Shown in pieces: positions 1 through 35,095 of a DNA stretch of 64,000 bases; position 1 is the stretch's first letter, and every line of letters starts with the position of its first letter. The notes under the pieces are model-generated. The model had not been told where the DNA came from. It did not search any database and worked only from the letters and a program-made list of their open reading frames with translations. The DNA is from Mustelus asterias. Taxonomy: Eukaryota. Made by a program: the position numbers and the translations under genes. The stretch is from contig NW_027590198.1 in NCBI RefSeq assembly GCF_964213995.1, positions 186,001-250,000 of the forward strand, in the 5' to 3' direction.

Positions 1-512
1 GAATCCGTGTCTCTTCAATTAGAGTCTTGTCCTCGGTCTCTTGGATTACAAGTCCATTGACAATCCCACTGCCTCCCCTTGAAAGAGTGTTTCTTTCTAT
101 TTTGAAGTAACACAGTGAGCGAGATGGCCTTGATGTCAGCTTTTTTCCTGAGACGGCTGGTAAGATTTGGAGAAACAGTTGGTGTTGGACTGTTTCACAG
201 GTCACAGCGTAGGGCTAAAATGTTGGAAAGTGCATTCACCCTAATAATTAATCAATGACAAGTGCTGTGTTCCTGAGTTGGGGCATGGTTGGGAATGCTG
301 CAATGCTGATTCATGAGAATGATACCGCTGCTAAAATATTTTAATAAAGAGAATAATTTCACAGAACAAGCTGGTTTTCCATCGTCTATAGAAGTTTAAA
401 GGCGATACTTAGAGGTTAATATCACGAAAGCGACTTTTTCTGCTTTAGGGTGAATACTGCTGTCCTGCTTCTGAAGAGGGAACTTGGGTTGATTTTCATT
501 TGTCATTTACAG

Positions 513-821
513 ATCCTTCCCAGTGCCATGATCAAACAGTGACGATACAGCCACCACCAATAGAACAGGTCCTACTGGAGGCAACAGTGACCTTAACCTG
601 CATCATTTCTAATGCTCCTTATGGAGTCAACGTGTCCTGGATCCGAGACAGGAAGTATTTGAAATCAGAGATTGCCGAAAAGCCAGGAGCGGATCCTGAC
701 AGCGTGGTCAGCAAATTAAACATCTCGACAGAAGCCTGGCTGAGTGCGGCTGTGTTTCACTGTGTGGTGAGCCATCAGGATCTACCGACTCCTTTAAGAA
801 AATCCATCCACAAGGAAACAG
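513..821 (+). CDS. IGHM: IgM heavy chain constant exon Cmu3
   Basis: ttacag acceptor at 511-512 and G|gtgagc donor at 822, phase 1. C1-set domain [30 protein letters not shown]...VNVSW...[22 protein letters not shown]. Confidence 0.93.
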
Positions 822-1317
822 GTGAGCTGAGAGATTGAAGCAATAAATGCGTCACTGTGTCTATTTCCAGTGTCAGTGTACTGGTCAATATTCAGTATTC
901 AGTGCATTAATGGTGTCCCCTGAGTGGAAACTCCACTAACTAAAGACTCTGGTCCTGCAGATAGTTTTACGGGGAAATTTGATGTGTTGATGAATGAAAA
1001 GTGAACTGAAGGCGATGTTATTGGATTTAGATCGAATAAGGAGGGAGGAGCCTGATGTGGAGCATGAAAACCAATAAAAAAGCAGATCAGTTGGGCCGAA
1101 GAGCCTGATTCAGTGCTGTAAACTTTCTGAAACTTTCCCAGTCCAACCCGCTGAGTTATTTGAGAAAACAATTGCGTTCACCTCTCCTCCAAGCTGGAAG
1201 TCAAAAATGGAAACATTTAAAATCGAAAGCGAAGCACATTTTTCTGATACCCAGCCAGCAGTTTCATTGTCTCCAGAATCCTCCAGTTTATTGACATTTA
1301 TTGTACTTTTTCTGCAG

Positions 1318-1709
1318 ATCCAAATCCGCGGGAACCGTTCGTCTCTGTCCTCCTGCCCTCGGCAGAAGAAGTCTCCGCTCAGAGATTCGTCTCCCTCAGC
1401 TGCTTAGTGAGACGTTTCTCCCCGCGAGAGATCTTCGTCAAGTGGACCGTCAACGACAAGCCGGTGAATCCTGGGAACTACAGGAACACCGAGGTGGTCG
1501 CGGAGAGCGGGAATAGCTCCTTCTTCATGTACAGCCTGTTATCCATTGCAGCAGAGGAGTGGTCCAGCGGTGCTTCTTACTCCTGTGTGGTGGGACATGA
1601 AGCCATCCCCTTGAAGATCATCAACAGAACAGTTGATAAATCCAGCGGTAAACCCAGTTTTGTGAACATTTCCCTTGCACTGATGGACACCGTTAATTCA
1701 TGTCAATGA
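1318..1709 (+). CDS. IGHM: IgM Cmu4 exon plus secretory tailpiece
   Basis: tctgcag acceptor. [15 protein letters not shown]...[17 protein letters not shown]...[23 protein letters not shown] followed by tailpiece [20 protein letters not shown] with the N-glycosylation site and penultimate Cys typical of elasmobranch IgM. Internal donor G|GTAAAC after 1647 serves the membrane form. Confidence 0.95.
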
Positions 1710-1736
1710 GAATCATTCGCGAACATTAAAAACTTC

Positions 1737-1751
1737 AATAAAAATAATAAA
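1737..1751 (+). terminator. Secretory-form polyadenylation signals
   Basis: AATAAA at 1737-1742 and 1746-1751, just after the stop at 1709, followed by a T-rich tract at about 1798-1835. Confidence 0.8.
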
Positions 1752-2499
1752 ATATTTTTCCTCTAACGATAAATGAAATAGCCAAACGCTTAATTGATTG
1801 TTTTTCAGTTTTACTTCCATTAGATATCTTTGGTTTGAGTCAGATATTTTCAGGTCTCAGGCCCAAGTCTTGTTGAACCAGTGCACCCAGCTCAGATACA
1901 CCCTGTGTTCGAGACAGAGTAGAGCACATTCATTACAAGATTCTGCAAAATATCTTCACCGACTTTCCTCCCTGAGGAAAAATCCGACAATTTGAACATT
2001 TCTGACAAACGAACACAACATTTAGATCTCGGTGTTCCTGCTTCTCTCGTTGTCCATGCCTTTACGCATTGATGTCATATTTAAGCTGCTGCACACACCC
2101 ACTGGAGTGAGGGTCACACAGAAACATGGAGCAATAATCCCCCCATCAGAGAGAGGGAGAATGAAATTGTGAACATACCGGATTCCTACTCACCCAATAA
2201 AGAGAGGGGAGGAGCAGTAGCTAACCCATGTACCATCACTTCCTCAATGAAAAGAGGAGGAATGGCCTTATTTAATCCACAGTACCTCCACCTCCTCAGT
2301 GGTTAGAACCATCAGGGACATTGCTTCACCAGGTAGAGAGAGGGAAACTATGAGCTCACTCTCCTCACTCTCCCCAAGTAGCGTGTTTGGAAGGGAACGG
2401 CTCTCTACTATAAGGACTCAGTTGTCAACAGTACAAATTAGCTTCCGTTTACTTGCTGCAGATTTTGAAGTATCATTATCAAAGTGTCATTGAAGTATA

Positions 2500-3412
2500 T
2501 AATACACATATACTTATATATATATATATATATAAATATTATATATATATATATATATCTATATATGTGTGTGTGTGTGTACTTATATACATATATACTT
2601 ATGCAACATAATTTAAAAATGTTGCCACACTCTTGTTCCTGTTAATCATGTGCTGGAATTGATTTCCCAGAATACAAATTTAAACAAATAATAGAATCCT
2701 CCCCAGTTTTCACTGTTCTGTCACTGAGGTTTCTGAGATGCATCAATGAATTATTTCATTCGCTCTCCTGATATCACCGTGCCACTCACATAAAAGAAAT
2801 TTATACAGCAAACACTGAAAATGTGCTCCATTATTCATATTGTTTGGATTATGTTCAGTTAATGATTGCCGGTGAAACTTGAAGCAACAGTTAAAAAATA
2901 CACACACTGACAATACCGCACAGAACTGTCACAATTATAAATACACACATGGGCGTACACATACACACACACACACACAGACACACACACACATCGACAC
3001 AAATGCACAAATACACGCACAAATACACATACTCACAAATATGCACACAAATGCAGAAAGACACATGTAAATACACACACACAAATGCATGCACATATAC
3101 AGAAATACGGACAGGCGCATTCAAATACAGACATAGAAGCACACATACACAGCACATACACATGCACAGAACACACAGATGCATGCATACACACAGATAC
3201 ACTTTCACACACCATAGGTACATGCAATACTTGCACAAACGTACACACATGCAGAGAAACAAGAATGCGCACACAAATGCACTCATGGACAACGCAGGCA
3301 CAAACAAAAATACACACACAAATACACACAGACACAAATACACCCACACAAAAATACACCCATACATAAATACATCCGTACACAAATATACATAGGCACA
3401 CACACATATTCC

Positions 3413-3452
<40 letters not shown>

Positions 3453-4320
3453 GACACACACGGATACATAGACTCGCGCTTGGACAGTCACTAAAACAAC
3501 AACATACGTAGATAATCAAATATGTACAAACGCACACATATACACATAAAACACACAAGTACATACACATTCACATACTTGAGTAGGTACACAGACCCAA
3601 ATACAAACACATACATGCAGAGACACAATACAGACAGATACACACGCATGCAGACCCACATAAATACACAAGCACATACATCATCTCAAATAAATACATA
3701 TATTAGCACACATTCACGCTGACAGGAATATAGATATAAAGACGCACAATGTTATACACATTAACAAACATACATGGAAATATATATAAACAAATTAGCA
3801 GACTGCATATAGATGAACAGACTGCAAAACATTTACACGCAAACATGTGGACGCAAACATTAACATGCTCATACAGAACAGAACACCATAGCACACATTA
3901 CTACACATCGAAACACGAACATACATCAACACACCGTTATAAAGAACTATCAACACGTATATACATGTACTGACCTGTTAACAGACATGCACACAGAAAC
4001 ACACGGAGAGACAGACGCACACAGAAAGGGAAACAAACATTACTAGAGTCACAGAAATTAACACATAGCAATAGGCATAAACACACGTGCGCCCATTAAG
4101 AATGGCATTAATACATATTCATAGACTTCACACAATAATAGAGTCATACATACACAATGACAGAAGAATAAAATATACACACAGATGCAGACAACTTCAC
4201 AAATCAACAACCATAGGCAAATGAACAAGTACCTTAACACTGTTGCACACATATTAACTCAGAGCCAAGAATAATGCAGACCAGGAGATGCTCATGCACA
4301 CGCACACAAACGCATGATCT
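2500..4320. repeat. (TA)n/(CA)n/(CT)n microsatellites and degenerate CA-rich low-complexity tract in the Cmu4-TM1 intron
   Basis: Visible dinucleotide runs; the ORFs here are HT/CV-rich artefacts. Confidence 0.9.
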
Positions 4321-4873
4321 TAAATACAAATGGTAGGCAAATGATGAATGTAAAATTTAAAGGTGATTTTTTAATGCACATATCCACAGATTAACTATCC
4401 AAATGTACAATGAACAGACAAACACGTTGAGAAGCTGAATTAAGCTCATGATCTATTTCCACCATAAAGAAGCACAGATCGGAAATTACATCCCAACTCT
4501 TAAACAACAACATTTAGTTTATAAATCAGTAACCATCTGTGAAAACAATCATTGATCAGTGAACGATATCAGTCATAACATTGTTCAATAAGGGATAGTG
4601 GCAAATAGTTCAAAAATAAACTGATACTCAATTAAACATCTTCAGTGTTTTCTGACATGGACTGTCCAAGGAATGTCAATAAAGATCAGGTGTGAAAATA
4701 GTTACGGAGATCGGTTACTGAGTGTCCTGAATTTAACAGTAGATATACATTGAAAATTAAATTCGAGATTAAATGAACAGCTTAAAAAGGAGAACGGGGA
4801 ACATAAAAATAACAATAAGATCACCTGGATAAATAAAGTAATCTAATTTCACTTCCTGGTCTCCGTCCCCTAG

Positions 4874-5001
4874 ACTCCATCGACCGCGTCTGGATTGACG
4901 ACAATGAGGATGATAACAGCAACATCTGGACAACCGCTTCTACATTCATCGTGCTGTTCTTCCTGAGCATTTTCTACAGCACTGCGGTCACTCTGGTGAA
5001 G
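4874..5001 (+). CDS. IGHM: IgM transmembrane exon TM1
   Basis: cccctag acceptor and AAG|gtgaga donor. [43 protein letters not shown] matches the conserved membrane-Ig CART motif and is in phase with the Cmu4 internal donor. Confidence 0.95.
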
Positions 5002-16027: not shown

Positions 16028-16789
16028 ACGGTGGTCAAAATATTCCTGACTTTGGTTTTTATCCTGAACACAGGTCAGTGAAACTGCAATCTTCTTAGAA
16101 TATATTGCGATTCCTGTGCAGTTTCCTTTTCCCCTCTCTGGGTGATTAAACTCTTCCTCTTACTCCTCACGTACTGTGCGCCCGCTGCTTATTTTCAAAG
16201 ATGAGTAACGGTGACTCAGTGTCCCAGTCAGAACCAGGAGTTGAAGCAGCAGAGGGTGAAGATTCAGCAACACCCTGCAGTTACTCTGTACCGAGTTCAG
16301 CTAGAGAATATGGCCTGTTCTGGTATCACCAGTATCCACAACAAGCTCCTCAGTATCTGCTCAGAGCCGATAGTTATGGGTATAAGAAGACAGCTCCCGG
16401 CTTCGAAAGGTTCAGCGTGAATCACAACCAGAAACGAAGTACTTTTCACTTGTCCATGAAGTATTTGAAGGTGATGTGGAGATGCCGGCGTTGGATTGGG
16501 GTAAGCACAGTAAGAAGTCTCACAACAACAGGTTAAAGTCCAACAGATTTACTTGGCAGCACTAACTTTCGGAGTCTCAGGCTCCTTCATCGGATGAGTG
16601 AGTGAGTGAGTCATACACCTGATGAAGGTGCCTGAGACTTCGAAATCTAGTGCTGCCAATAAACCTGTTGGACTTTAACCTGGTGTTGTGAGACTTCTTA
16701 CTGTATTTGAAGGTGACAGACAGCGCCGTGTATTACTGTGCACTGAGGCCCACAGTGAATGAGGCTCCCGCGGGCCTCATACCCAAACC
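16028..16789 (+). pseudogene. TCR alpha/delta-type V pseudogene (V1) with 23-RSS
   Basis: Leader 16028-16073 starts ACG and has a gtcagt donor; the acceptor appears mutated (caa). V exon GDSVSQ...C...LFWYHQYPQQAPQYLL...KV[insertion]TDSAVYYCALRP. RSS CACAGTG (16751)-23-ACCCAAACC (16781). Confidence 0.92.
16475..16702. mobile_element. Palindromic Penelope pLTR-derived insertion in V1 FR3
   Basis: 14-bp TSD gtatttgaaggtga (16461-16474 / 16703-16716); inverted arms of about 90 bp around a (gagt)n loop; hammerhead cores in the arms. Confidence 0.85.
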
Positions 16790-18202: not shown

Positions 18203-18608
18203 ATGTGTTCCCTGTGTGCTTTACTGATAATAATGGTCATGCTGCGCGGTGAGTCTGAGCTCAAATCCCCAGTGTGTGTTTCATCGGTTATATTCACTCA
18301 GATTTCTCACACATTCTTTGTGTTGTTACAGGAACCAGTGGCCAAGATTCCGTTTCCCAGGAGCGCCTGAATTAACGGTTCAGAAAGGACAGACGGTAAT
18401 TTTGAACTGCAATCGCACAACAAAAGGCTCTATCCCGACTCTCTTCTGGTACATGCAGTATCCCGGGGAATCGCCGAGATACTTATTGGAGATACATAGC
18501 ACGGGGGACGGGGAAAAGTCTTCAGATTTCTCCCAACGGTTTTCTGCTGATTTGTACCAAGACAAGAAAACAGTTCCTTTAAATATCACCGGGGTCCGAC
18601 TCTCTGAT
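18203..18608 (+). pseudogene. TCR V pseudogene (V2), frameshifted and 3'-truncated
   Basis: Leader MCSLCALLIIMVMLR 18203-18248 with gtgagt donor. Exon from 18332: GTSGQDSVSQE[fs]PELTVQKGQTVILNC...LFWYMQYPGESPRYLL...LNITGVRLSD, then no YYC and no RSS. Confidence 0.9.
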
Positions 18609-19918
18609 TTAAAATAAATCCAAGTTATTAACAACCTGAAAGAAACAGATGCAGCAGCGGAGAAGTTTTCCCCTGTGCCATGTACATCAAACACATTCGA
18701 ACATAACGCAAAGATGTGTCTGCAGAATATATACCACGCCGTAAATTGAAGAAATTATGAGGGAAATGCTGAGAAAATAATATTTGATATTGTGTTGCAG
18801 GCGTTAAAGGAAGTACAGAGCATAGGCAAATGCAGCAACTGGTGAATATCTCTGAGGGAAGTGCATGACCGACGTATTTGTCTGAGCATAAAGACTTATC
18901 CAACGATTCGGATTTCCCAAAGCTTTTCCTGTGATTACAGCAAGCTTTCAAAAATTTTCTTTCCGGGATGTGGGCGCCGCTGGCTCGGCCGGTATTTTTT
19001 TACGCATCCCTAGCTGTGCTTCGCAAACTTTCCGACGCTCTTCTCAATTAGGGCTTTACATTCAGCCGATTTCCTTACCAACAGTTCTAGTGCCGAGAAC
19101 ACACCAACCTGCCCTTAAAGATCATTTATTTCTTAACGTTGGATCTATTCTCTCCCCACAGATGCTGTCAGACCTGCTGAGATTTTCCAGCATTTTCTGT
19201 TTTTGATTTCTAATCATGCACTGAAAATGTAGGAGAAATTTCTTCATCCAGAGATGGTGCATCTATAGAATTCATTAACACAGAAAGTAGTTGTGGCAAA
19301 AACATTGTGTCATTTCAAGAAGAAACTAAATATAGCTTTTGGAGTTAAGAGATATGGGGGAAGGCTGTATCAGGGTATTGAATTTGGTGATCAGCCATGA
19401 TCAAAATGAATGGCAGAACAGACTGACCTACTCCTGCTTCACGTTTCCACGTTTCTGTAAACTTTTGTACATTTTATGTTAAGAATTCTTAGTTTTAAGA
19501 TGTGTTTAATATATAATATTTAATGATACTGGAAAAATGAGAGATATTTGATCTGCCTCAGCTGCCAGCTTCAGTTTACACAATTGACAGATATTTCAAA
19601 CCTTAAATTATTTATTCCTTTGCTCTGAGTTTTTTTTCTGAAACATCAGAAAAGTGATATAACTCGTTCCAGGCGACTCCACATATTCTATTCTCAATGT
19701 GAATGGCGAGTGACCAGCGATCCGCAAATAAACAGCAGCCTCGCTCAATGAATGTAATAATCAGACAGTATTTGTTTTCGATGTGAACGGTTTTGATGGT
19801 GTTTGTATGGATTGCACTCAGTGTCTGAGGTCACAGGAGTGTATTGACTTGTCAGTGTGTAACCCGCTGTTGGAAACAGCTCTCAACAGACAACAGCTGT
19901 GACCTAGAAACCTGTGGC

Positions 19919-19957
19919 AGTTTTTGTACGAGGATTACACTCGGTCCCATCATTGTG
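19919..19957 (-). other. 23-RSS of V3
   Basis: CACAATG, 23-nt spacer, ACAAAAACT. Confidence 0.92.
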
Positions 19958-20261
19958 AGACTCACTGCACAGTAATAGATCGCGGTGTCAGACAGCAGCA
20001 GCTCCGAGATGGTCAATTGGTACAACTTATCCGACTGCTGGACTATATCAGAATACCAGGTCTGAGCGAAATCCGCCTTCCATTCAGCACCGCCGTACAC
20101 GTCCCTCCGGACCGCAAACTTGGGATGTCTGCCTGGATATTGACGGTACCAGAACAAATAATAAGCATCGTCGGTATAGGTGCAGCTTAAAGTGACATCT
20201 TCTCCCTCTGTTCGAGTGAGTGCGGATTCCTGCTGAGAAACAGAATCTCCACCGCTCAGAT
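19958..20261 (-). CDS. TCR alpha/delta-type V exon (V3), open frame; leader not identified
   Basis: ttccag acceptor. DLSGGDSVSQQESALTRTEGEDVTLSCTYTDDAYYLFWYRQYPGRHPKF...LTISELLLSDTAIYYCAVS with both Cys and the Trp intact. Confidence 0.88.
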
Positions 20262-21374
20262 CTGGAACACAGAGATGAAAAAAAAATATTGATTGAAAGT
20301 TCAATTGAACCGAGGGTGAAAAATCAGAGTTTAACATAAAAATTAGTATTAAATTCTACCACATTCGCTCGAACTTATCTCTGTCCCCGTTTACAATCCC
20401 CAGGAGAATCCTCCCTCTCCCCTCAAGTCAAATGCCCCGTCCCTTTCCCTTTCAGTGGTTTCTCTAGTTTGCCTCAAATGCATCTTTTCTCGTCTCCTCA
20501 ACTGTTCATTATGTCAATGTCAGTCAACTTCCACAGAACTCTTTCTAAAGAACTTTCCCTGTAATTTCCAGTTGATCTTTTTGTTTCACTTATATTTATG
20601 GGACATAGATTTGGAATGCTTCCCAAATGGAATCATCCTCTGCCTGTCCACTACACTACACCTCTTTGATTTGATTTATTATTATTTGATTTGATTTGAT
20701 CATCACTGACTGAAGTCAGTCAGGTTTCCCGTTAGTCTTCTCGTCAGGAGTGAAATTAATCATAATCCTGATATTGTTTTCTAATAGCTCTCACAAAGTA
20801 AAAGTAAACCCTGGTACAATCTCTCTAAATTGCCTTTACAGTGAGCTTTTAGAATCTATTCTCCAAATAACAAGGCCACTCACAAACATGCATTTGGGCT
20901 CTAAGGCAGGTCTAATATTTGTTTGAGATGAATATCCTGCTTTTCAAACTTAATCCTCTATAAATTACATTCCTTTTTACTCCCTTTTAAAGATTGAAAT
21001 TTCTTACCAACAATGAATGTCACCCAGAAAACAGCGCGAACGGAGATCCACATTGTTGCTGCTCCTGGATTCCAGGGACTTGTGTCTCCGAAACCTACAG
21101 AATATCGAATAAGATAAAGCTGAGAGCATTGGATGAGGCTAGTCTGACCTCACATCCTGCAGAACCAATGGTAAGAAGAGCTGAGATCACTGGATCGAGA
21201 ATAAAGAGTTGATTGGATACCACCATCTGCCAATTGATTTATTCCTGACAGACTCATCAGGCGGTATCCAGTCATCCCATCGGCTCTGTTCTACATAGAG
21301 ATTACTGCCTTCTTCAACCCGTGTCAAACCATTCGCGTGGAAGGTATCTGACTGTTGCTGGAAATACTCTCTGA

Positions 21375-21907
21375 GGCTTTTGTACGGTGTTTTAGCAGTA
21401 ATCTAACCCTTGTGCCTCACGGCACAGTAACAGTCCGCCCTGTCCTCCACATTGAAGGCGCTTATATTCAGGTCACCGTTCTGTTTAGACTCGTCAACAG
21501 CCGCCAGATATCGTCCTGAAACTTCATCTTCCCTCAGCATTGCTAATAATCCATCTCAGTGGCTGTGCCGGTTTCTGTTGGTACCATTGCATGCTGTAAA
21601 TATGTTTGTCTTTACATTTACAATGTAACTGCACCAAACCCCCTTCTGATGCCGTTATTGTCACCAGTGACTGAGTTGCTGGATCTGCACACAGTCCGTC
21701 TTTGAAGGTAGAGGAATGAAATATCAAGAGATAATTTAAAATTCCCTGTACCTGTGATAGTTTGTGGTGTCTCCCATATACGCCTCATATGGATATGTCT
21801 GGTGGTTAATCATATCACCATCCGTGCGTATTAATATATTTATCTGGCTTGATGAACATTTCCCAGTACTTTCTGTGAAAGAGCGCCGCCACTGTGATCA
21901 GATACAT
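21375..21907 (-). pseudogene. TCR V pseudogene (V4)
   Basis: Leader MYLITVAALFH 21907-21874 with a mutated donor (gaaagt). Exon 21699-21415 GLCADPATQS...VQLHC...MQWYQQKPAQPL[fs]...EDRADCYCAVR. RSS CACAAGG-24-ACAAAAGCC. Confidence 0.9.
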
Positions 21908-24263: not shown

Positions 24264-24649
24264 GCGACTGTGGCAGCTTATAAAAGTTGCAAATCTCCAT
24301 CTTCACAGAGAGTGACTAAGCCAGGAATCGAAACAAGGTTTCTGACGTGGTGAGGCAGCAGATCTAACCACTGTGACGCCCTCTCCCACAAATATTCTAT
24401 GAGATTTGATAAATTGCAGGTTTTGTTTATGTATTTGCAGTGCAGAAGGTGGAATTGATTCACATGGGGTTTGGTTTGAGAACCTGAGCACAAACTGCAG
24501 GGAATCCATCAGCACATCACACTCCATGGAAAATCAAGATACGTTCAGCAGGTTTGGCTTTGTAACTGGACACTCATTTTATTCCCATTCACATCTTCAG
24601 CTAACTCCATGATTGCGAGTTCAGGGAGCTGGCTGGATGTTTCTTTTTG

Positions 24650-27212: not shown

Positions 27213-27763
27213 ATGTACGGTCTCGTTTTGTATTAAGTTCTCACTGTTTCAGCTCTCTTACTTGGTCAGTCAAAAATTTACACAATCTTCCTCTTGCAAG
27301 CAACTTCGACGTTAATTTAATTTCACTTTGTTGCTAGTTACAATGTGATCCGTTCCCTAATGCTATTATTTACAATCAAATGATAATGACATCTTAACGC
27401 TTGATGTTTCTAAATTTCTGCAGGTGTCATTGCTGCAGACTCGATCTCACAGGAGCCGGTGATAGCGGTGGAGTTTGAAGGAGACTCGGTGCCCATTAAG
27501 CTCAACTGCTCAGCAGCTGGTGCATGTTACATCCAATTGTACCGCCAGCACCCAGAGAAAGCTCCCACCTTCTTTATCCACACCTCTAATTATGGAGATA
27601 TTTCCAGTGCCGAGGACATGGGGCCCCTATTTTCTGTACCTATCGATAGGTCGATAACAACGTGAATTTCACCATCCGTGAGCTGCGGTTGTCTGACAGC
27701 GCGGTGTATTACTGCGGACTGAGACACAGTGACAGAAACCAGAGGAAGCCTCGTATAAATAAA
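27213..27763 (+). pseudogene. TCR V pseudogene (V5) with 23-RSS
   Basis: Leader 27213-27264 with an in-frame TAA. Exon from 27424: GVIAADSISQEP...IQLYRQHPEKAPTF (Trp lost)...stop/fs...LRLSDSAVYYCGLR. CACAGTG at 27725, 23-nt spacer, degenerate nonamer. Confidence 0.9.
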
Positions 27764-34764: not shown

Positions 34765-35095
34765 ATGTGAGCTGTGTGCGGGTTTTTTCTGAGATTTCAA
34801 TTGCAATTGGAAAAGTGTCCAGAGAGGAGATTCCGTGCAGTTCGATTGTAGTTACGAGGTATCCAACTTTTTTGCGATGCATTGGTACAAACAGAAATCC
34901 GGTTAGGGACTGGAGTGCGTTCTCATGCGGAGCTCTGGCAGAGGCCGAAGCGGTCGTTTTGAACTGAATCTTGATACCAGTGTGAAACGCGGCCATTTGC
35001 TAATTCAAAGCACGGAGAACGCGGATGCTGCAGTTTATTACTGTGCGATTGATCCGCACACTGAGACAAGGCGCGACAGTCGCTGTACAAAAACC
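34765..35095 (+). pseudogene. TCR V pseudogene (V6) with 23-RSS
   Basis: GDSVQFDCSYEVSNFFAMHWYKQKSG*GLECVL...SGRFELNLDTSVKRGHLLIQSTENADAAVYYCAIDP. CACACTG (35057)-23-ACAAAAACC (35087). Confidence 0.9.

What the first reader, a model, noticed from the sequence alone, without database searches (positions are those of the whole stretch)
19919..20261. The only open V exon is inverted and faces the IgM cluster, like TRDV3 or TRBV30
Seen: V3 has an intact frame, a good acceptor and a near-consensus 23-RSS. It lies 3' of Cmu on the opposite strand. Known: V genes placed inverted 3' of a C region (human TRDV3, TRBV30) rearrange by inversion, and shark IgH D segments carry 5' 12-RSSs. Inference: V3 could join this cluster's D-J to give a TCR-V/IgM chimera, the reciprocal of known IgV/TCR delta chains. 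Caveat: I could not find an intact leader; the likely donor at about 20373-20378 reads ATAAGT.
Basis: inference. Interest (0 to 1): 0.7.

Follow-up and report, generated by a model that had tools for sequence, protein, structure and literature searches.

The report
Ordinary shark TCR V beside IgM
This is a complete shark T-cell-receptor alpha/delta variable gene lying backwards next to an intact antibody (IgM) gene; it likely serves ordinary T-cell receptors, and its backwards position is likely an accident of a region where such genes face both ways, so the proposed T-cell-receptor/antibody hybrid remains possible but untested.

Summary
The IgM cluster just left of the window is intact, and its D segments carry 12-RSSs 33 kb from V3, so an inversional join is 12/23-legal. 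But the geometry is not special. About 105 C-mu copies are interspersed with TCR alpha/delta Vs; Vs 3' of their nearest C-mu split 29 inverted to 29 same-strand. All 8 open TCR Vs on this contig could join the same Ds. Two other copies of the inverted layout are broken. Beside 13 of 19 C-delta copies (the true TRDV3 position) V3's family is not inverted. None of 83 testable IgM JH segments has lost its VH to a TCR V, whereas one join in the known direction (IgM D1 to TCR D-delta) is in the assembly. The intermingled architecture is published (PMC12227049), and this scan noted similar scattered Vs elsewhere in this genome. No RNA could be tested. Verdict: ordinary TCR V; chimera unproven (about 5%).

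The parts
21145..21152 (-). CRE-like promoter octamer TGAGGTCA, 99 nt upstream of the leader ATG
   Evidence: a TGA[CG][GA]TCA motif at 82-104 nt upstream in 17 of 21 sequences (V3 plus 20 paralogs); function inferred
21008..21053 (-).
   Evidence: in-frame splice; homologous leader 619-1727 nt upstream of the V in 20 of 20 paralogs
20262..21007 (-).
19958..20261 (-). V3: open TCR alpha/delta-type V exon with both cysteines, WYRQ and YYC
19919..19957 (-). 23-RSS, heptamer CACAATG, nonamer ACAAAAACT
   Evidence: 17 of 20 paralogs have CACAGTG at this place
512..821 (+). IgM C-mu CH3 exon (boundaries approximate); L-VH-D1-D2-JH, CH1 and CH2 lie outside the window at G000:C166:171308-185600
1317..1709 (+). 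IgM C-mu CH4 exon with secretory tail
4874..5001 (+). IgM transmembrane exon
16201..16789 (+). TCR V pseudogene interrupted by an insertion, 23-RSS kept; part of a three-V module with V3
18330..18615 (+). TCR V pseudogene (frameshift, truncated before YYC, no RSS); second member of the module
21375..21694 (-). TCR V pseudogene (frameshift) upstream of V3's leader
27426..27760 (+). TCR V pseudogene (frameshift)
34780..35095 (+). TCR V pseudogene (stop codon) with a good 23-RSS

Best explanation
V3 is a complete TCR alpha/delta variable gene segment (leader, intron, open V exon, 23-RSS) in the shark antigen-receptor complex, and it likely joins a TCR D-delta or J-alpha segment in thymocytes like its relatives, its inversion relative to the neighbouring IgM gene likely being a by-product of segmental duplication. 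Shown: the anatomy, the family, the mixed orientation of Vs around IgM clusters, the duplicated three-V module, and TCR D-delta/J-delta/C-delta and J-alpha/C-alpha on the scaffold that carries the closest duplicate. Inferred: transcription from the CRE-like promoter, RAG joining of the 23-RSS to a TCR 12-RSS by deletion or inversion, and expression as an alpha or delta chain. The window's contig is unplaced and has no TCR D, J or C, so V3's own partner and direction of joining are not known.
For: Intact leader, conserved in 20 of 20 paralogs. V3 groups with catshark and bamboo shark Vs (99/98), next to the family used in whale shark V-J-C-delta and epaulette shark V-J-C-alpha gene models (89/77, weaker), and apart from VH/TAILV (99/98). 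Of the 150 best V hits, 95 share a contig with a C-mu: 29 inverted and 29 same-strand 3' of the nearest C-mu, 18 and 19 on its 5' side. Contig C166 has 8 open TCR Vs with RSS, 3 plus and 5 minus, and all 8 have a geometry that would allow a chromosomal join to this cluster's Ds (geometry by inference). The duplicate at C71:12.49 Mb (43 kb, about 90-94% identical) has a stop codon in the V leader and an IgM whose VH is already joined with no free D; the copy at C96:1.47 Mb has a stop in the V and a frameshifted CH1; at C71:9.06 Mb a family member lies 12 kb 3' of an IgM on the same strand. 13 of 19 C-delta copies have a close V3 relative 27-35 kb downstream on the same strand, none inverted (compared by hand). 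83 of 84 IgM JH hits keep an IgM VH within 2.5 kb; the other is 43 nt from a contig end. Published: TCR alpha/delta V exons between IgH clusters, both strands in Table S1 (PMC12227049); 97 partial IgH rearrangements, all but possibly one inside the minilocus, and no Ig transcripts in thymocytes (PMC2435157).
Against: No transcript or coding joint of V3 itself was seen. C166 holds no TCR D, J or C in 773 kb, and its only 12-RSSs with at most 2 mismatches are those of this IgM cluster; V3 is the nearest open TCR V to them (33 kb). V3 has drifted: heptamer CACAATG against CACAGTG in 17 of 20 paralogs, and 7 non-synonymous against 2 synonymous changes assignable to its branch (few changes). The nurse shark PCRs were primed in the VH leader intron and JH, so they could not see a TCR-V/JH join. 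The JH test covers 84 JH hits against about 105 C-mu copies, many of them duplicates.
Confidence: 0.78

Rival explanations
1. V3 is an ordinary TCR V that also joins the IgM D1 or D2 by a 33-kb inversion now and then in thymocytes, as an unexpressed by-product (compatible with the best explanation).
For: 12/23-compatible RSSs 33.4 and 33.7 kb apart. Shark thymocytes rearrange IgH loci extensively while recombining TCR genes (PMC2435157). An IgM D1 to TCR D-delta coding joint, equal to a 55-kb deletion relative to the unit at C71:7.06-7.12 Mb, is assembled at C138, so IgM D signals can pair with TCR signals at this range.
Against: The D's own VH is about 0.4 kb away against 33 kb. 0 of 83 testable JH carry a TCR V, though 37 of them show internal joins. 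The C138 join uses D1's 3' RSS and runs in the known direction.
Confidence: 0.25
2. One reading: V3 regularly joins D-JH by inversion and yields an expressed TCR-V/IgM heavy chain, the reciprocal of IgV/TCR-delta chains.
For: All parts are intact: V3 with leader and promoter motif and the whole IgM cluster. This is the only one of the three inverted copies within 20 kb that were examined in which both partners are intact.
Against: Orientation is at chance level; duplicates are broken; any of 8 open Vs on the contig fits as well; thymocytes lack Ig transcripts; eight literature searches returned only the IgV-to-TCR direction in the passages read.
Confidence: 0.05
3. V3 is an intact-looking but unused, slowly decaying V, stranded by duplication far from any TCR D or J.
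For: All its V neighbours in the window are pseudogenes; excess of amino-acid changes at conserved sites and a changed heptamer; no TCR D, J or C on its contig.
Against: Leader, splice sites, cysteines, tryptophan, promoter motif and RSS all survive, while the 90%-identical duplicate has already gained a stop. Megabase V-to-J distances are normal in this complex (PMC12227049 Table S1).
Confidence: 0.15

Closest known systems
TCR alpha/delta V exons between IgH clusters in the elasmobranch antigen-receptor complex (Flajnik et al. 2025, PMC12227049, Fig. 1 legend and Table S1)
   Same: TCR-type Vs on both strands interspersed with IgM miniclusters on both strands, with NARTCR and TAILV-like Vs in the same complex.
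   Different: No difference for V3. This assembly shows about 105 C-mu and 19 C-delta copies, more than that table lists; haplotype duplicates may inflate the counts.
Human TRDV3 / mouse Trdv5 and TRBV30 / Trbv31 (PMC7696796, passages)
   Same: An inverted V with a 23-RSS 3' of a constant region; a join to upstream D segments would go by inversion.
   Different: There the V is the one inverted segment of its own locus, 3' of its own C. V3 lies 3' of another receptor's C in a field of Vs facing both ways, and its family is not inverted where it lies 3' of C-delta (13 of 19 copies).
Shark IgV/TCR-delta trans-rearrangements (Criscitiello 2010, Deiss 2019, Ott 2021; not held, seen only as cited in PMC12227049, PMC5931798, PMC6795676)
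   Same: Same complex and same 12/23 logic; one join of this kind is in the assembly at C138.
   Different: Known chains carry an Ig V on TCR D-J-C. The proposed chain has the opposite direction and was not found here.

Membership tests
Functional TCR alpha/delta V segment | Open V-set exon with Cys23, Trp41 and Cys104 | tested here: met
Functional TCR alpha/delta V segment | Split leader with GT-AG intron, in frame | tested here: met
Functional TCR alpha/delta V segment | 23-RSS directly after the coding end | tested here: met
   one mismatch each in heptamer and nonamer
Functional TCR alpha/delta V segment | Groups with TCR alpha/delta Vs, not with VH, TAILV or NAR V | tested here: met
   23-row tree; VH/TAILV form a separate clade (99/98)
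Functional TCR alpha/delta V segment | Linked in cis to D-delta or J-alpha | tested here: inconclusive
   None on C166; the closest duplicate is on C71, which has both
Functional TCR alpha/delta V segment | Found rearranged and expressed with C-alpha or C-delta | not testable with these tools
   No RNA holder listed
TRDV3/TRBV30-type inverted 3' V | Inverted and 3' of a constant region | tested here: met
   (the constant region is C-mu)
TRDV3/TRBV30-type inverted 3' V | The constant region belongs to the V's own TCR locus | tested here: not met
TRDV3/TRBV30-type inverted 3' V | Lone exception to an otherwise uniform orientation | tested here: not met
TRDV3/TRBV30-type inverted 3' V | Position kept intact in duplicates or other species | tested here: not met
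   2 of 2 other inverted copies examined are broken; other species not tested
Ig/TCR trans-rearranging segment (reciprocal direction) | 12/23-compatible RSS pair in cis | tested here: met
Ig/TCR trans-rearranging segment (reciprocal direction) | TCR-V/D/JH joints exist in DNA or RNA | tested here: inconclusive
   0 of 83 assembled JH; lymphocyte DNA or RNA not available

The most novel reading that the evidence does not exclude
Because intact TCR Vs and intact IgM clusters are interleaved, sharks make reciprocal chimeras: V3, the nearest open TCR V, inverts onto this cluster's D-JH and is expressed as a TCR-V/IgM heavy chain that VH-primed studies could not have seen.
Probability: 0.05. Interest if true: 0.75.

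Novelty: new member of a known kind. Interest (0 to 1): 0.17.

Why it matters
As an ordinary V it adds one annotated, intact segment and corrects a missed leader. If the reciprocal chimera existed, the exchange between antibody and T-cell-receptor segments in sharks would run both ways, which bears on how the two repertoires became separate. This locus gives a concrete primer pair for that test, but so do many other V-IgM neighbours in the genome.

Tried and rejected
The ATAAGT 'broken donor' was rejected: the real donor is 630 nt further upstream. RNA test: no RNA holder listed; this says nothing on expression. Two unlabelled contig runs of one sample were laid on V3 and on the C138 join: no joints were listed at V3, no listed contig bridged the C138 join, and many pieces were not shown, so neither result is evidence. 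Pfam PF09291 found no C-alpha; C-alpha was found with an epaulette shark protein. A single-sequence search for full-length V3 chains found none; the alignment search gave 65 proteins, with no V-J-C chain over 46% identical to V3. The search of 1.84 billion representatives could not be run. PDB matches were generic TCR and antibody V domains. No fold or complex job was sent: a V-set fold is not in doubt. Criscitiello 2010, Deiss 2019, Ott 2021 and Matz 2021 are not held; they may say whether reciprocal chimeras were looked for. The PDF supplement of PMC12227049 was not read.

Full report
Observation. The exon at 20261-19958 (-) is an open V-set domain (E 4.9e-12) with a pyrimidine-rich AG acceptor and a 23-RSS at 19957-19919. 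It lies on the strand opposite C-mu CH3, CH4-secretory and TM exons at 512-5001. The other V-like remnants in the window are frameshifted, stopped or truncated. I checked 20 paralogs chosen from the 62 closest hits; all 20 have the homologous leader, 16 with an open frame and a GT donor. A CRE-like octamer lies 82-104 nt upstream in 17 of 21 sequences (the motif class is recalled).

Context. The window is G000:C166:186001-250000. The IgM cluster to its left is intact: leader, VH with 23-RSS, D1 (12/22), D2 (12/12), JH with 23-RSS, CH1-4, secretory tail and TM. V3's RSS is 33.4 kb from D2's 5' 12-RSS and 33.7 kb from D1's, so an inversional V3-to-D join is legal under the 12/23 rule (established knowledge). 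The whole 773-kb contig has two IgM clusters, 8 open TCR Vs with an RSS (3 plus, 5 minus) and no TCR D, J or C. By geometry (inference), an upstream V on either strand or a downstream inverted V can each make a chromosomal join to these Ds, so all 8 qualify; V3 is only the nearest.

Family. V3 groups with catshark and bamboo shark Vs (99/98) and, less firmly (89/77), next to the family found in whale shark V-J-C-delta and epaulette shark V-J-C-alpha gene models; VH and TAILV-like Vs form a separate clade (labels for TAILV and NARTCR are recalled from sequence features). For the 95 V hits that share a contig with a C-mu, orientation to the nearest C-mu is 29 inverted and 29 same-strand on the 3' side and 18 and 19 on the 5' side. 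These hits include duplicates and probable haplotype copies, so they are not independent.

Duplicates. V3 and its two neighbours form a module that recurs elsewhere. The block from the IgM cluster to V3 is duplicated at C71:12.49-12.53 Mb at about 90-94% identity; there the V leader has a stop and the IgM VH is already joined, with no free D. At C96:1.47 Mb the V has a stop and CH1 is frameshifted. At C71:9.06 Mb a relative lies 12 kb 3' of an IgM cluster on the same strand, the one geometry that cannot give a chromosomal join. This argues against selection on the inverted layout, although it also leaves the window as the one examined copy with both partners intact.

TRDV3 analogy. TRDV3/Trdv5 is inverted with respect to all other segments of its own locus and lies after C-delta (PMC7696796, passages). 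Here 19 C-delta copies were found (identity supported by an upstream 12/23 D, 51.5% identity to the whale shark C, and a TCR-type TM exon). Thirteen of the 19 have a close V3 relative 27-35 kb downstream, all on the same strand (searches compared by hand). The main J-alpha array and C-alpha are at C71:18.37-18.43 Mb.

Test for reciprocal joins. A TCR V joined to an IgM D would leave a JH without its VH. Of 84 JH hits, 83 have an IgM VH within 2.5 kb upstream and one is at a contig end; by spacing, 37 of the 83 carry one to three internal joins. The known direction is present: at C138:217.3-219.0 kb an intact IgM leader-VH is followed by IgM D1 joined to a TCR D-delta, then J-delta and C-delta, equal to a 55-kb deletion relative to C71:7.06-7.12 Mb. 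Whether that join is inherited or somatic is open. It shows that IgM D signals can pair with TCR signals at this range, which supports feasibility of a V3-D join but not its occurrence.

Literature. PMC12227049 (abstract, introduction, first results, passages and Table S1 read) reports TCR alpha/delta V exons between IgH clusters and lists them on both strands. PMC2435157 (passages) reports that 97 partial IgH rearrangements, with one possible exception, lay inside the minilocus, and that thymocytes rearrange IgH but show no Ig transcripts; its primers were in the VH leader intron and JH, so TCR-V/JH joints would be invisible. PMC5931798, PMC6795676 and PMC5192425 (passages) describe only Ig V on TCR D-J-C. 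Eight searches gave no report of the reciprocal chain, but the three primary papers on trans-rearrangement are not held, so this is weak.

Against my reading. No V3 transcript or joint was seen, and its contig is unplaced. V3 carries a non-consensus heptamer and 7 non-synonymous against 2 synonymous private changes, which could mean disuse. The only good 12-RSSs on its contig are the IgM cluster's.

Verdict. A complete, ordinary TCR alpha/delta V in a published architecture (0.78). Occasional silent V3-D joins in thymocytes are plausible (0.25). An expressed TCR-V/IgM chain is not excluded but has no support here (0.05). Interest 0.17.

Noticed in passing
G000:C138:217300-219000 (-), locus L142:7300-9000: Intact IgM leader and VH with 23-RSS, then IgM D1 joined directly to a TCR D-delta, followed by J-delta segments and C-delta. 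It looks like a RAG coding joint that deleted about 55 kb (JH, C-mu, NARTCR cassette, TAILV-like V) relative to C71:7.06-7.12 Mb. If inherited, it is a hard-wired IgM-VH/TCR-delta locus; no listed contig of the two runs laid bridged it, so a somatic origin is open.
   Followed up: partly
G000: C71:7.14, 11.04 and 12.27 Mb and 16 other contigs: 19 TCR C-delta copies (80-100% identical), most with their own J-delta array, interspersed with IgM clusters; three are on one scaffold. TCR delta may be organised as repeated miniclusters here. Haplotype duplicates could inflate the count. One search found no paper on this.
   Followed up: partly
G000:C71:18.25-18.49 Mb: The main J-alpha array and C-alpha have no C-delta or V in the 115 kb upstream that was read; the nearest C-delta hit on the scaffold is 6 Mb away, unlike the close delta-alpha linkage in catshark and stingray in PMC12227049 Table S1. 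Real or a scaffolding artefact.
   Followed up: no
G000:C71:11023400-11024000, locus L147: A TCR V with an internal stop codon is joined directly to the end of a D-delta with its 23-RSS, just upstream of J-delta: a probable pre-joined V-D pseudogene.
   Followed up: no
IgM clusters genome-wide; C166:442792-443150: By VH-JH spacing, 37 of 83 IgM clusters carry internal joins (22 one, 14 two, 1 full VDJ); the full VDJ is the second cluster on the window's contig.
   Followed up: no
L029, L030, L031: Three V3-family paralogs share a leader donor changed from GT to AT, and L035 has a broken acceptor; their V frames are still open.
   Followed up: no
window 24337-24375 (-): A near-consensus 23-RSS with no V exon in front of it.
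   Followed up: no
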